NCBI RefSeq assembly: GCF_000026545.1
Contig: NC_011601.1
Length of the DNA: 64,000 nucleotides
Reading direction: 5' to 3' (one strand)
Origin: Escherichia coli O127:H6 str. E2348/69
GTDB lineage: Bacteria; Pseudomonadota; Gammaproteobacteria; Enterobacterales; Enterobacteriaceae
Each line of letters opens with the position of its first letter. The first letter of the stretch is position 1. Made by a program: the position numbers. Positions 9,001-12,000 of the stretch are shown here, piece by piece.

Positions 9001-12000
9001 GCCAAGGAACATCGGAATCTCTGCGCCGACGATCACACCAATCGTACCAATTCCGCCCATGACCGCGCCGCGTTTACCGCCGACCAGATGACCACCGGTA
9101 GAACCAATCATCACGGGCAATAAATAGGTAATCATCGGACCAACAATTTTGGCGAAATGTTCATTCGGCAGCCAGCCGGTGGGAATAAATAATGCCGTTA
9201 TAAATCCCCAGGCAATAAAAGCACCGATATTGGGGATGACCATTGCAGTCAAAAAGCCCCCAAAAGCCTGGACCTTTGCACGAGCAGACTTGTTTTCCAT
9301 AATGTTATCCTGTAGAGGAGAGAGTCATTATCCGCGGCTGATAATGTCCACTAATTGTTTTTCTGATGATGCGGTTAAGAGTTGTTCGAGTATTTCTTCT
9401 TCGCACAGTAATTCACTTAACGCCTGAATAGCGCCAATGTGCGAATTGGCATCGGCAGCAGAAAGCCCGATGAGTAATTTAATCGGTTCGTCATTCCCCG
9501 GAAAATAAACGCCTTGTTTAAGTAACGTCAAAGACATCCCGGTTTTAAGCGCCCCACATTCCGGTCGCGCATGAGGCATTGCCACGCCTGGAGCGAGAAT
9601 ATAATAAGGACCATTGCTGATGGTGGAATCTTTAATAGCCTGAATGTAATTCTCGCTGATATAGTTTTTTGCTAACAGTGATGCCATCGAGAAATTGATA
9701 GCTTCCTGCCAGTCTTTTGTTGAATGTATAACTGAGATTGATAATTCTGGAAAATAATCAATAAGCCGCATAAATTATCCTTATTTATTTTTAGGGTACC
9801 GTCCGGCGGTAAAAATAAAATACGCGTACAAATTAACGAAAGCAATTGGACACATGAAAGGAGAAACTCCACAAGCAAAAATAACAAAACATTAAATAAC
9901 AACAACATGAAATAAGATTTTAAAAAGTCAATTATAAATCTGTTAAGTAAACTACAAAATCAAAAAATTATTCATCACTATATTTGTGATACACATCTCT
10001 ATTTTCCTATTGAATGTTCGAAAACATACTTATTGCGTTTATTATTTTTTCGCTCATCCCCTTTATAAATTCTGAATTATCGCCTGTTGTCTGTTTTCTC
10101 CTCACCTCATGTGACATATTTCCATACTTTACTCAAGGAAGATTCACGTGAAAGCACCTGTTTCAATAACTTCATTCCGCCCACAAAAATCTCTTGCTAT
10201 CGCCATTGGCGTGCTTGCCGTGATTGTGCTGCCATTTCTCTCGTATTACACCGTTAATGAAGGTGAACGCGGCATTTTGCTGCGCTACGGAAAAATCGTA
10301 AAAGTTGCCGAGCCGGGGCTGGGTTTTAAGATCCCTTTTATGGAAAGCGTGGAGAAAATTTCCACGCGTAATCAGGCTGTGGTCTACCAGGGATTACAGG
10401 CTTACAGCCGCGACCAGCAACCAGCACAAATGACAGTATCAGTCAGCTTCCACATTAAACCTTCAGAAGCAGGCGCGGTTTATACCACCTACAACACCAT
10501 TGAAGCATTAAAAGATCGTCTGATTGTCCGTCAGTTGCCAACTCAACTGGAGAACGTTTTCGGCCAATATACCGCCATCAGCGCCGTACAGGATCGTACA
10601 AAACTGGTTCAGGATCTGCAAAATGCCATGCGCAAAGCCGTTGTTGGGCCAGTGGTAATTGACGGGGTCCAGATTGAAAACATCGATTTTTCTGACGCTT
10701 ATGAAAAGTCGATTGAAGACCGAATGAAAGCAGAAGTCGCCATTGCCACGCGTAAGCAAAATCTGGAAACGGAGAAAATCCAGGCGCAAATAGCGGTAAC
10801 TCAGGCCCAGGCGGAAGCAGACAGTAAACTGGCGGCAGCCAAAGCAGAAGCGGAAACTATTCGCGTAAGAGGCGCGGCAGAGGCTGAAACTATTCGTTTA
10901 AAAAGTGCGGCTGAAGCAGAAGCTATCCGCCTGCGCGGTGAAGCTCTGCGGGAGAATCCCGGACTTGTTGCCCTCACCACTGCTGAGCGTTGGGACGGTA
11001 AACTGCCCGATACCATGATCCCCGGCAGCACAGTTCCGTTTATCTCTACTAAGTAAAAAAAGGGCCGCTTTCGCGGCCCTTGAGATTGATAGCAAAGACA
11101 AAACTGCCTGATGCGCTACGCTTATCAGGCCTACATACTTCCTGCAATATGTTGAATTTGCAAAATCTTGTAGGACGGATAAGGCGTTCACGCCGCATCC
11201 GGCATAAACAACGCGCACTTTGCCAACAATCTGAAGGGCCGCATTTGCGGCCCTTCTCACAAAGCATCTTACCGATTACAGCAGTTCTTTTGCTTTCGCA
11301 ACAACGTTGTCAACGGTGAAGCCGAACTCTTCAAACAGCAGCTCTGCCGGAGCAGATTCACCGAAGGTGGTCATGCCGACGATAGCACCGTTCAGGCCAA
11401 CATACTTGTACCAGTAGTCAGCAATACCCGCTTCCACCGCAACGCGTGCAGTAACCGCTTTCGGCAGTACAGACTCACGGTAAGCAGCATCCTGCTTGTC
11501 GAACGCGTCGGTAGACGGCATGGAAACCACGCGCGCTTTCACGCCTTCAGCAGTCAGTTTTTCGTAGGCAGCAACCGCCAGTTCAACTTCAGAACCGGTC
11601 GCGATGAAGATCAGTTCCGGCTGACCGGCACAGTCTTTCAGCACATAACCACCGCGCGCGATGTTTGCCAGCTGCTCTTCAGTACGTTCCTGCTGCGCCA
11701 GGTTCTGACGGGAGAGGATAAGCGCAGTCGGGCCGTCCTGACGCTCAACGCCGTATTTCCACGCGACCGCGGATTCAACCTGGTCACACGGACGCCATGT
11801 AGACATGTTCGGGGTCACGCGCAGAGAAGCGACCTGCTCTACCGGCTGGTGAGTCGGACCATCTTCGCCCAGACCGATGGAGTCGTGGGTGTAAACCATC
11901 ACCTGACGCTGTTTCATCAGCGCAGCCATACGTACGGCATTACGTGCGTATTCCACGAACATCAGGAAGGTTGAGGTATATGGCAGGAAACCACCGTGCA

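What the first reader, a model, noticed from the sequence alone, without database searches (positions are those of the whole stretch)
9780..11090. SPFH/band-7 gene with Ala/Glu-rich tandem repeats and an AT-rich upstream region between cmtB and tktA
A GTG-initiated 302-aa SPFH-domain protein with three near-identical 11-residue C-terminal repeats follows about 370 bp of strongly AT-rich sequence, in an interval I recall as a short intergenic region in K-12. Composition and placement suggest a small horizontally acquired insertion.
Basis: partly seen in the sequence, partly recalled or inferred. Interest (0 to 1): 0.4.

Follow-up and report, generated by a model that had tools for sequence, protein, structure and literature searches.

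The report
Fifth E. coli SPFH protein, absent from K-12
The window carries an intact, already annotated membrane-scaffold (SPFH/prohibitin-type) gene between cmtB and tktA that K-12 lacks, but it is an old resident of this site rather than a recent foreign insertion, so the finding is real and fairly ordinary.

Summary
Window 10148-11056 (+) is a 302-aa, GTG-initiated ORF with a strong Pfam Band_7 match. It has three 11-residue Ala/Glu-rich repeats (33-nt period, 10844-10942) and follows 376 bp of 29.5% GC sequence. RefSeq names it 'prohibitin family protein'. The window is E. coli E2348/69.

K-12 does lack the gene. It is in 1830 of 5426 complete E. coli genomes, and 3595 carry the K-12-type short interval.

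The interpretation, a small horizontally acquired insertion, is not supported:
- The gene has normal composition (49.8% GC).
- It has no mobility genes, tRNA or flanking repeats.
- It is under strong purifying selection (dN/dS 0.02-0.10).
- It sits next to tktA in E. albertii, E. whittamii, another non-coli Escherichia genome, Kluyvera and Pseudocitrobacter, with divergence similar to its neighbours.
- The AT-rich stretch is the cmtB/gene divergent regulatory region, and K-12 has a diverged homologous counterpart of it.
- K-12's short interval resembles the Citrobacter/Atlantibacter arrangement, so two old haplotypes segregate.

Most likely function (inferred): a periplasm-facing, HflC/prohibitin-like inner-membrane protein that assembles into an oligomeric ring or cage. 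The third repeat is an Escherichia-specific duplication that lengthens its long helix.

Low interest.

The parts
9328..9771 (-). cmtB (PTS mannitol-type EIIA), left flank, transcribed away from the SPFH gene
   Evidence: RefSeq annotation; ORF
9772..10147 (.). AT-rich (29.5% GC) divergent intergenic/regulatory region shared by cmtB and the SPFH gene
   Evidence: Composition. Homologous region in other Escherichia, with conserved blocks. K-12 counterpart is 32.9% GC.
9849..11275 (.). Haplotype-specific segment (1427 bp). K-12 has 235 bp here instead. The left boundary falls right after AAAGCAATTG and the right boundary at the tkt stop codon.
   Evidence: Alignments with K-12 and with the gene-carrying strain ECONIH1, which is identical to K-12 up to the boundary
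9985..10000 (+). CRP-like site TGTGA-N6-TCTCT (2 mismatches). A lead only.
   Evidence: The position is conserved, with better matches in E. albertii, E. whittamii, MOD1-EC7003 and K-12. CRP activates the cmtB promoter in K-12 (PMC3105977). Matches of this quality occur at chance frequency in the window.
10062..10147 (+). Proximal upstream region of the gene, with blocks conserved as far as Kluyvera and Pseudocitrobacter (CTTTATA-A/G-ATTCTGAATT; TTTACTCAAGGAAGATT with the ribosome-binding site at 10135-10141). Absent from K-12.
   Evidence: Alignment of 11 upstream regions; sequence
10148..11056 (+). SPFH/Band-7 'prohibitin family protein' CDS, 302 aa, GTG start
   Evidence: dN/dS 0.02-0.10
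10181..10243 (+). N-terminal transmembrane helix (residues 12-32), probably a signal anchor with the N-terminus in the cytoplasm
   Evidence: AlphaFold2 secondary structure. Hydropathy and positive N-terminal charge across 66 homologues.
10250..10777 (+). SPFH domain (Pfam residues 35-210)
   Evidence: fold matches to HflC, erlin, prohibitin and stomatin
10694..10954 (+). Single long helix (residues 183-269), the coiled-coil 'wall' segment of SPFH assemblies
   Evidence: AlphaFold2 model, block-mean pLDDT 72-94 over this stretch, lowest at its C-terminal end
10844..10942 (+). Three tandem 33-nt / 11-residue Ala/Glu-rich repeats. The family consensus has two; the third is specific to Escherichia.
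   Evidence: family alignment
10955..11053 (+). Conserved C-terminal tail (…LTTAERWDGKLPDTMIPGSTVPFISTK), mostly low confidence in the monomer model
   Evidence: Conservation; pLDDT below 50 for most of 276-302
11060..11081 (.). GC-rich hairpin after the stop codon. It is the bidirectional terminator shared with tkt in strains lacking the REP insert.
   Evidence: Terminator scan; conserved in Pseudocitrobacter, Kluyvera, ECONIH1 and O139:H1
11082..11255 (.). 174-bp REP/BIME-type insert with a second copy of the hairpin (11234-11255). Absent from ECONIH1, O139:H1 and Kluyvera.
   Evidence: Repeats D2/I1; Rfam ES036, 50 bits, at 11127-11169; comparison of spacers
11276..13267 (-). tkt (tktA), right flank, convergent with the SPFH gene
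   Evidence: RefSeq annotation

Best explanation
Window 10148-11056 encodes a functional, vertically inherited SPFH-superfamily inner-membrane protein of the HflC/prohibitin branch. It corresponds to the 'p-prohibitin' type and is annotated 'prohibitin family protein'.

**Architecture**
- Short, positively charged N-terminus.
- One transmembrane helix (residues 12-32).
- SPFH domain (33-181).
- One 87-residue helix (183-269) carrying 11-residue Ala/Glu repeats.
- Conserved C-terminal tail.

**Mechanism (inferred, not shown).** It inserts with the N-terminus in the cytoplasm and the SPFH domain in the periplasm, like HflC. It then assembles into a homo-oligomeric ring or cage on the inner membrane. 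Such an assembly would fence off a membrane patch and control one or more client membrane proteins, a membrane protease such as FtsH being the obvious candidate. The extra 11-residue unit in Escherichia equals three helical turns. It would lengthen the wall helix by about 16 Å while keeping its face register.

**Evolution (shown).** The gene is a long-term resident next to tktA. E. coli segregates two old haplotypes at this site. The long one carries the gene (34% of complete genomes, including E2348/69). The short one lacks it (66%, including K-12) and has the same layout as in Citrobacter and Atlantibacter. The AT-rich 376 bp is the divergent promoter region shared with cmtB.
For: **Identity**
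- Pfam Band_7, 111.6 bits.
- A family profile matches HflC at 1.4e-19, HflK at 3.8e-12, Prohibitin at 4.7e-11, PHB2 at 9.6e-11 and QmcA at 4e-7.
- The AlphaFold2 model (pLDDT 83.2) shows the TM-SPFH-long-helix layout.
- Full-length Foldseek hits go to HflC, erlin1/2, PHB1/2, HflK, stomatin, QmcA and flotillin, all solved as large complexes or cages.

**Topology**
- The N-terminal flank is net positive in 57 of 66 homologues, while the post-TM flank is neutral.
- The TM and first SPFH strands align to HflC.
- HflK/C are reported to face the periplasm (PMC10434171).
- p-Prohibitins were predicted to be periplasmic (PMC2636767).

**Functional gene**
- dN/dS is 0.02-0.10 against nine alleles or orthologues.
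- Sampled hits across the identity ranking have uniform length and are annotated as intact.

**Vertical residence**
- cmtB-gene-tkt order in E. albertii, E. whittamii and MOD1-EC7003. Gene-tkt convergent order in Kluyvera and Pseudocitrobacter.
- The terminator and spacer are nearly identical between E. coli and Pseudocitrobacter.
- Protein identity falls with taxonomic distance.
- Flank dS is of the same order as the gene's dS.
- GC is normal. There are no mobility signatures.

**Two haplotypes**
- 1830 + 3595 = 5425 of 5426 genomes.
- K-12's 235-bp segment aligns with the gene-carrying upstream regions at the same offsets: score 24-27 against a null of 11.5±1.6, 0 of 500 shuffles.
- K-12's terminator matches the Citrobacter/Atlantibacter type, and its interval length matches theirs (313-317 bp).

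**Third repeat** is Escherichia-specific.
Against: - No experiment bears on topology, oligomeric state or clients. The cage and the FtsH link are by analogy only.
- The protein scores far below the NCBIfam HflC/HflK cut-offs, and it has no HflK-like partner gene.
- No neighbour is conserved across 77 distant loci, so genomic context gives no client.
- The family does have mobile members: Enterobacter and Pseudomonas plasmids, and jumbo phages at about 51% identity. Lateral movement somewhere in its history is therefore plausible.
- Both haplotypes cross genus boundaries. At least one must have entered or re-entered Escherichia by recombination, or have been lost repeatedly. I could not decide which.
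- E. fergusonii and Salmonella were not examined.
- dS between some E. coli alleles (0.30 for E2348/69 vs O139:H1) is higher than for the flanks (0.12-0.18). This hints at allele exchange within the genus.
Confidence: 0.7

Rival explanations
1. A small block (AT-rich DNA plus the SPFH gene) was recently acquired horizontally and inserted into the short cmtB-tktA spacer of an E. coli lineage.
For: The gene is present in only 34% of complete E. coli genomes and absent from K-12, B and O157:H7. There is a sharp sequence boundary at 9848/9849. Family members occur on plasmids and jumbo phages.
Against: - Same site in three other Escherichia species, and adjacency to tkt in Kluyvera and Pseudocitrobacter.
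- Gene GC of 49.8%.
- The AT-rich region is homologous to K-12's own spacer.
- No tRNA, IS, integrase or target-site duplication.
- dS to orthologues scales with species distance.
- The only near-identical match in the plasmid collection is a 4.9-Mb record, evidently a chromosome.
Confidence: 0.05
2. The short (K-12) haplotype is the ancestral Escherichia state, shared with Citrobacter and Atlantibacter. The long haplotype entered the genus anciently, by homologous recombination of a tktA-linked segment from a Kluyvera- or Pseudocitrobacter-like donor, and has been inherited since.
For: Citrobacter, C. koseri and Atlantibacter have the short layout, with the K-12-type terminator and spacer length. 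The 46-bp gene-tkt spacer of E. coli is almost identical to that of Pseudocitrobacter.
Against: - All non-coli Escherichia genomes recovered carry the long form, with species-level dS.
- The short allele is much less diverse within E. coli: 2678 of 3595 genomes are at 99% identity or more. That suggests it is the younger allele in this species.
- A 35-nt block of K-12's segment resembles the Escherichia long-allele upstream region and not Citrobacter's.
Confidence: 0.15
3. The protein is a specialised HflC/HflK paralogue. It co-assembles with HflK/C or directly modulates FtsH, rather than forming its own homo-oligomeric cage.
For: The best sequence and fold matches are to HflC. A Bax1-I (YccA-family) gene lies divergently next to homologues in 10 Pseudomonas loci. 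From my own knowledge, E. coli YccA is an FtsH/HflKC-associated substrate.
Against: - Scores are well below the HflC/HflK equivalog cut-offs.
- The gene is not linked to hflKC.
- The Bax1-I association is limited to one genus subgroup (10 of 77 loci).
- The family lacks a paired second subunit.
Confidence: 0.1

Closest known systems
HflC / HflK (E. coli FtsH modulators; PDB 7VHP, 7WI3, 9CZ1)
   Same: N-terminal TM anchor followed directly by an SPFH domain with the EGERG…LR(F/Y)GK motif, then a long helix. Best sequence, profile and fold matches. Predicted periplasmic orientation.
   Different: 24% identity or less. Below the NCBIfam equivalog cut-offs: 59.7 vs 134.4 and 37.4 vs 159.4 bits. 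Single gene with no paired partner, and not in the hfq-hflX-hflKC operon. Distinct conserved C-terminal tail.
Prohibitins (eukaryotic PHB1/PHB2; 'p-prohibitin' SPFH4 subfamily of Hinderhofer et al. 2009, PMC2636767)
   Same: Size of about 270-300 aa, with an N-terminal anchor, SPFH domain and coiled coil. No NfeD partner. Profile E-values of 5e-11 to 1e-10. RefSeq product name. Hinderhofer et al. predicted this subfamily to face the periplasm and noted that no member had been studied.
   Different: 17-20% identity to human PHB1/2. Eukaryotic prohibitins are PHB1/PHB2 hetero-oligomers, whereas this is a single gene. I could not test assignment to SPFH4 against that paper's own models.
QmcA-YbbJ and YqiK (the other K-12 SPFH proteins)
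   Same: SPFH superfamily, membrane-anchored, cage-forming fold (QmcA 8Z5G).
   Different: Weaker similarity: QmcA 4e-7 by profile. No adjacent nfeD gene. QmcA and YqiK are reported to face the cytoplasm, whereas this protein is predicted to face the periplasm.
Phage and plasmid SPFH proteins (phrog_200; jumbo phages GAP32, BF, pEa_SNUABM; Enterobacter plasmids)
   Same: Full-length homologues: 51% identity in jumbo phages and 67-72% on Enterobacter plasmids. phrog_200 at 4e-63.
   Different: The E. coli gene is chromosomal, single-copy and syntenic across genera. No near-identical copy lies on a true plasmid or phage.

Membership tests
SPFH / Band 7 superfamily (Pfam PF01145) | Sequence match above the Pfam gathering score | tested here: met
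   111.6 bits vs 23.6, residues 35-210
SPFH / Band 7 superfamily (Pfam PF01145) | α/β SPFH fold followed by a long coiled-coil helix, with an N-terminal membrane anchor | tested here: met
   AlphaFold2 pLDDT 83.2: TM 12-32, strands and helices 33-181, helix 183-269. Foldseek E-values of 1e-17 to 1e-12 to HflC, erlin, PHB, stomatin and QmcA.
SPFH / Band 7 superfamily (Pfam PF01145) | Assembly into a large ring or cage oligomer | not testable with these tools
   Only a monomer prediction is available. The C-terminal tail has low confidence in the monomer.
HflC / HflK equivalogs (NCBIfam TIGR01932, TIGR01933, NF008259, NF008181) | Score at or above the curated equivalog cut-off | tested here: not met
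   59.7 vs 134.4; 53 vs 427; 37.4 vs 159.4; 34.7 vs 660
HflC / HflK equivalogs (NCBIfam TIGR01932, TIGR01933, NF008259, NF008181) | Paired hflK-hflC genes in one operon | tested here: not met
   Single gene between cmtB and tkt. No second SPFH gene beside homologues in 77 loci.
HflC / HflK equivalogs (NCBIfam TIGR01932, TIGR01933, NF008259, NF008181) | Periplasm-facing SPFH domain; binds FtsH | tested here: inconclusive
   The charge distribution favours N-in/C-out in 57 of 66 homologues. FtsH binding cannot be tested.
Prokaryotic prohibitins (SPFH4; RefSeq 'prohibitin family protein') | Closer to prohibitins than to other SPFH branches | tested here: inconclusive
   Profile E-values: Prohibitin 4.7e-11 and PHB2 9.6e-11, but HflC 1.4e-19. 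The RefSeq name is an annotation, not a test. The SPFH4 models of PMC2636767 are not available here.
Prokaryotic prohibitins (SPFH4; RefSeq 'prohibitin family protein') | Stand-alone gene without an NfeD partner | tested here: met
Stomatin-type SPFH-NfeD operons (QmcA-YbbJ) | Adjacent nfeD gene | tested here: not met
   The neighbours are cmtB and tkt. No recurrent partner in other loci.
Horizontally acquired insertion / genomic islet | Deviant base composition of the cargo gene | tested here: not met
   Gene GC 49.8%, GC3 47.5%; window 48.6%; cmtA 49.7%
Horizontally acquired insertion / genomic islet | Mobility genes, tRNA target or flanking direct repeats | tested here: not met
   None annotated. 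No flanking repeats. No tRNA in 5000-16000.
Horizontally acquired insertion / genomic islet | Absent from the same site in sister species | tested here: not met
   Present at the same site in E. albertii, E. whittamii and MOD1-EC7003. Adjacent to tkt in Kluyvera and Pseudocitrobacter.
Horizontally acquired insertion / genomic islet | Presence/absence polymorphism within the species | tested here: met
   1830 genomes with the gene and 3595 with the short allele
Anti-phage defence systems (PADLOC) | Match to a defence-system protein model | tested here: not met
   No family at E ≤ 0.01

The most novel reading that the evidence does not exclude
E. coli has a fifth SPFH protein that K-12-based work could not see. 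It would be a stand-alone, periplasm-facing, prohibitin/HflC-like protein forming its own homo-oligomeric cage, with a client set distinct from HflK/C. It would be kept under strong purifying selection in a third of the species, including E2348/69, Nissle 1917 and ATCC 25922. It would be part of an old two-haplotype polymorphism whose two forms are each shared with different enterobacterial genera.
Probability: 0.45. Interest if true: 0.35.

Novelty: already known. Interest (0 to 1): 0.18.

Why it matters
It matters modestly. Published work on E. coli SPFH proteins counts four (YqiK, QmcA, HflK, HflC) because it uses K-12 (PMC10434171). About a third of complete genomes, including EPEC E2348/69 and probiotic Nissle 1917, carry this fifth, unstudied one. 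The bacterial 'p-prohibitin' class had no characterised member when it was defined (PMC2636767).

Phenotypes assigned to 'the' E. coli SPFH set may therefore differ in these strains. The gene is an accessible model for a single-subunit, HflC-like cage.

The locus is also a clean case where 'absent from K-12 and preceded by AT-rich DNA' wrongly suggests horizontal acquisition. None of this is surprising to a specialist. The gene is already annotated, and its family and fold are well known.

Tried and rejected
- **Defence system:** PADLOC scan found nothing.
- **RNA elements:** Rfam scan of 9700-11400 found nothing in the AT-rich leader. The only hits are REP-derived families in the downstream insert.
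- **Conserved partner genes:** clustering ORFs in 77 distant loci gave only genus-specific synteny, with no NfeD, protease or second SPFH gene. Pfam labels of the recurrent neighbours (Bax1-I, DUF4442, DUF418) give only a weak YccA-type hint.
- **CRP site by pattern alone:** matches of this quality occur at chance frequency, 33 observed against 26.5±5.5 expected. I keep it only as a lead supported by conservation and by PMC3105977.
- **Promoter and terminator scans:** counts are not above the shuffled expectation.
- **K-12 as a clean deletion:** rejected. Even ECONIH1, whose CmtA and CmtB proteins are identical to K-12's, diverges abruptly at the boundary. K-12 carries 235 bp of its own diverged sequence with a different terminator.
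- **Repeat-number variation:** none in the sampled complete genomes. Only rare variants appear in the protein database, for example a 285-aa protein and a 280-aa E. albertii form.
- **Literature:** four searches found no paper on this gene.
- **Not done:**
  - phylogroup cross-tabulation (the tools list at most 60 rows);
  - testing PaFlo9 of P. aeruginosa as a possible orthologue (no sequence at hand).
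Full report
**What is there.** The window matches E. coli E2348/69 at 100%. The ORF at 10148-11056 (+) is 302 aa with a GTG start. An AAGGAAG ribosome-binding site lies 6 nt upstream. RefSeq annotates exactly this CDS as WP_000646933.1, 'prohibitin family protein', between cmtB (9328-9771, -) and tkt (11276-13267, -).

Pfam Band_7/SPFH matches residues 35-210 at E=5.6e-32. Three tandem 33-nt units lie at 10844-10942, at 100/79/67% identity to the first. They encode AEAETIRVRGA / AEAETIRLKSA / AEAEAIRLRGE, residues 233-265. The 376 bp between cmtB and the gene are 29.5% GC. MG1655 has a 313-bp cmtB-tkt interval with no gene. The only caveat is that the repeats are 64-73% identical to each other rather than near-identical.

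**Distribution in E. coli.**
- The gene is found in 1830 of 5426 complete genomes, as a single chromosomal copy.
- All 59 other hits sampled across the identity ranking (98.7-93.2%) align over the same length and are annotated as intact. Repeat number is therefore fixed at three.
- The K-12-specific 235-bp segment is found in 3595 genomes.
- Together the two forms account for 5425 of 5426 genomes, which makes this effectively a two-allele locus.
- Carriers include E2348/69, Nissle 1917, ATCC 25922 and an O145 strain. Non-carriers include K-12, B and O157:H7.

**Not a recent insertion.**
- Composition is normal. The gene is 49.8% GC (GC3 47.5%), against 48.6% for the window.
- No mobility signature is present. 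There is no tRNA, no IS or integrase and no flanking direct repeat.
- The order cmtB-gene-tkt recurs in E. albertii, E. whittamii and Escherichia sp. MOD1-EC7003.
- In Kluyvera intermedia (epd-gene-tkt) and Pseudocitrobacter the gene is likewise convergent with tkt.
- Divergence tracks the neighbours. Against E. albertii, the protein is 95% identical, LoiP 95% and YggP 94%. Against Kluyvera, the protein is 84% and LoiP 85%.
- dS rises from 0.08-0.30 within E. coli to 0.23-0.71 against other Escherichia. Flank dS is of the same order.
- dN/dS is 0.02-0.10, so the gene is functional.

**The AT-rich stretch.** It is the divergent regulatory region, not cargo.
- K-12's spacer is equally AT-rich at 32.9% GC.
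- K-12 is identical to the gene-carrying strain ECONIH1 up to window position 9848 and then diverges abruptly.
- Even so, K-12's 235 bp align with the gene-carrying upstream regions at the same offsets. The local score is 24-27 against a null of 11.5±1.6, with 0 of 500 shuffles reaching it.
- The shared part includes a TGTGA-containing CRP-like site and a 35-nt block.
- CRP is reported to activate the cmtB promoter in K-12 (PMC3105977). The pattern alone occurs at chance frequency.

**Two old haplotypes.**
- Citrobacter, C. koseri and Atlantibacter hermannii have cmtB-(313-317 bp)-tkt with no SPFH gene.
- Their terminator (…CGCC-NN-AGCGACC…) is the K-12 type.
- The gene-carrying haplotype has a different terminator and spacer (AAAAAAAGGGCCGCTTTCGCGGCCCTTCTCACAA…). 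These are almost identical between E. coli and Pseudocitrobacter and similar in Kluyvera.
- K-12 is therefore neither the 'empty site' of an insertion nor a clean deletion. Two arrangements, each shared with other genera, segregate in E. coli.
- The short form is much less diverse in E. coli: 2678 of 3595 genomes are at 99% identity or more. All other Escherichia genomes recovered carry the long form. I therefore favour the long form as ancestral to the genus, but this is not settled.

**The protein.**
- Sequence searches rank HflC first (2e-13), then HflK, QmcA and prohibitins.
- A 66-sequence profile gives HflC 1.4e-19, HflK 3.8e-12, Prohibitin 4.7e-11, PHB2 9.6e-11 and QmcA 4e-7.
- It falls well below the NCBIfam HflC/HflK cut-offs, so it is not an HflC or HflK orthologue.
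- AlphaFold2 (pLDDT 83.2) gives a TM helix at 12-32, an SPFH domain at 33-181, one continuous helix at 183-269 and a largely low-confidence tail.
- Foldseek aligns the whole chain to HflC, erlin1/2, PHB1/2, HflK, stomatin, QmcA, flotillin and the major vault protein.
- The N-terminal flank is net positive in 57 of 66 homologues. With the HflC-like start, this predicts a periplasmic SPFH domain. HflK/C are reported to face the periplasm, and the same was predicted for 'p-prohibitins'.
- No partner gene is conserved.

**The repeats.** The wider family (Kluyvera, Klebsiella, Kosakonia, Erwinia, Pseudomonas and others) has two 11-residue units. Most E. coli and E. albertii sequences have three. 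The third is therefore a 33-bp duplication that arose in Escherichia. It lies inside the long helix. Eleven residues make three helical turns (1100° = 3×360°+20°), so the duplication extends the helix by about 16 Å with little change of face. This is a geometric inference.

**Mechanism.** I commit to the following, with about 50% confidence for the mechanistic part. The protein is a homo-oligomeric, periplasm-facing SPFH ring or cage on the inner membrane. It delimits a membrane microdomain and regulates client membrane proteins, possibly a protease such as FtsH.
- Shown: family, fold, conservation, selection, synteny.
- Inferred: topology, oligomer, clients.
- A weak hint toward the FtsH circle: a Bax1-I (YccA-family) gene lies divergently beside homologues in 10 Pseudomonas loci.

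**Comparison and novelty.** The gene is already annotated and belongs to a described subfamily. Papers on E. coli SPFH proteins count four because they use K-12. I found no paper on this one. Family members also occur on Enterobacter and Pseudomonas plasmids and in jumbo phages at about 51% identity over the full length. The E. coli copy itself is chromosomal and syntenic.

**Verdict.** The feature is real and correctly located. The horizontal-insertion reading is wrong, and interest is low.

Noticed in passing
window 10148-10150: The GTG start codon was seen only in E2348/69. Nine other alleles and orthologues (four E. coli, three other Escherichia, Kluyvera, Pseudocitrobacter) have ATG. Every other E. 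coli hit listed aligns from query base 2.
   Followed up: partly
window 11060-11255: A 174-bp REP/BIME-type insert sits between the gene and tkt. It duplicates the terminator hairpin (11060-11081 and 11234-11255) and has 38-nt inverted arms. Rfam ES036/CssrF scores 50 bits at 11127-11169, and naRNA4 is below threshold. The insert is also present in E. albertii. The gene-tkt spacer lengths of Z247, O145 and E. whittamii fit an insert, while ECONIH1, O139:H1 and Kluyvera lack it.
   Followed up: partly
window 9328-9771 (cmtB): cmtB is unusually variable. dN is 0.031 and dS 0.16 between E2348/69 and K-12. CmtB is only 85-91% identical to other Escherichia, whereas CmtA is 97-98%. ECONIH1 combines K-12-identical CmtA and CmtB proteins with the SPFH gene, which indicates recombination at the boundary.
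   Followed up: partly
window 9879-9915: A 16-bp tandem repeat (AAATAACAACAACATG, 2.4 copies) lies in the AT-rich intergenic region.
   Followed up: no
window 10062-10080 and 10110-10147: Upstream blocks (CTTTATAAATTCTGAATT; CATGTGACATATT…TTTACTCAAGGAAGATT) are conserved across Escherichia and partly in Kluyvera and Pseudocitrobacter. They may be a promoter, operator or leader. No Rfam match.
   Followed up: partly
phage records JN882285.1 (13535-14368), KY630187.1, MT939487.1 and others: Jumbo phages of about 355 kb (Cronobacter GAP32, Serratia BF, Erwinia pEa_SNUABM) encode full-length homologues at about 51% identity. phrog_200 matches at 4e-63. Another 31 Escherichia and 10 Stx2a-converting phage records gave weaker hits that I did not inspect.
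   Followed up: no
plasmid records NZ_CP103496.1, NZ_CP058161.1, NZ_CP040393.1 and others: Homologues at 67-72% identity are carried on 84-131-kb Enterobacter and Kosakonia plasmids, and on 73 Pseudomonas plasmid records. About half of the matching plasmids are predicted to be conjugative.
   Followed up: no
L038 2976-3647 (-) and 9 other Pseudomonas loci: A Bax1-I (YccA/BI-1 family, Pfam 4.9e-46) gene lies divergently about 350 bp upstream of the SPFH homologue in one Pseudomonas subgroup. This may be a functional hint toward FtsH-linked quality control, or only local synteny.
   Followed up: partly
NZ_CP135712.1 (hit H9), cmtB region: In strain TUM1586 an IS1 transposase lies within the matched cmtB-SPFH gene region and cmtB is annotated twice, which suggests an IS1 insertion in or beside cmtB.
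   Followed up: no
L096 1808-3687 and L097 1754-3687 (C. koseri metagenome scaffolds): tkt is called as two ORFs (291/309 aa plus 335 aa) in both C. koseri scaffolds. This is either a frameshift or an assembly error.
   Followed up: no
plasmid collection record NZ_CP134663.1: A 4.9-Mb E. coli record is filed among the plasmids. It carries the gene at 98.7% identity and is evidently a chromosome. It also probably explains the single 'plasmid' place in the E. coli genome search.
   Followed up: no
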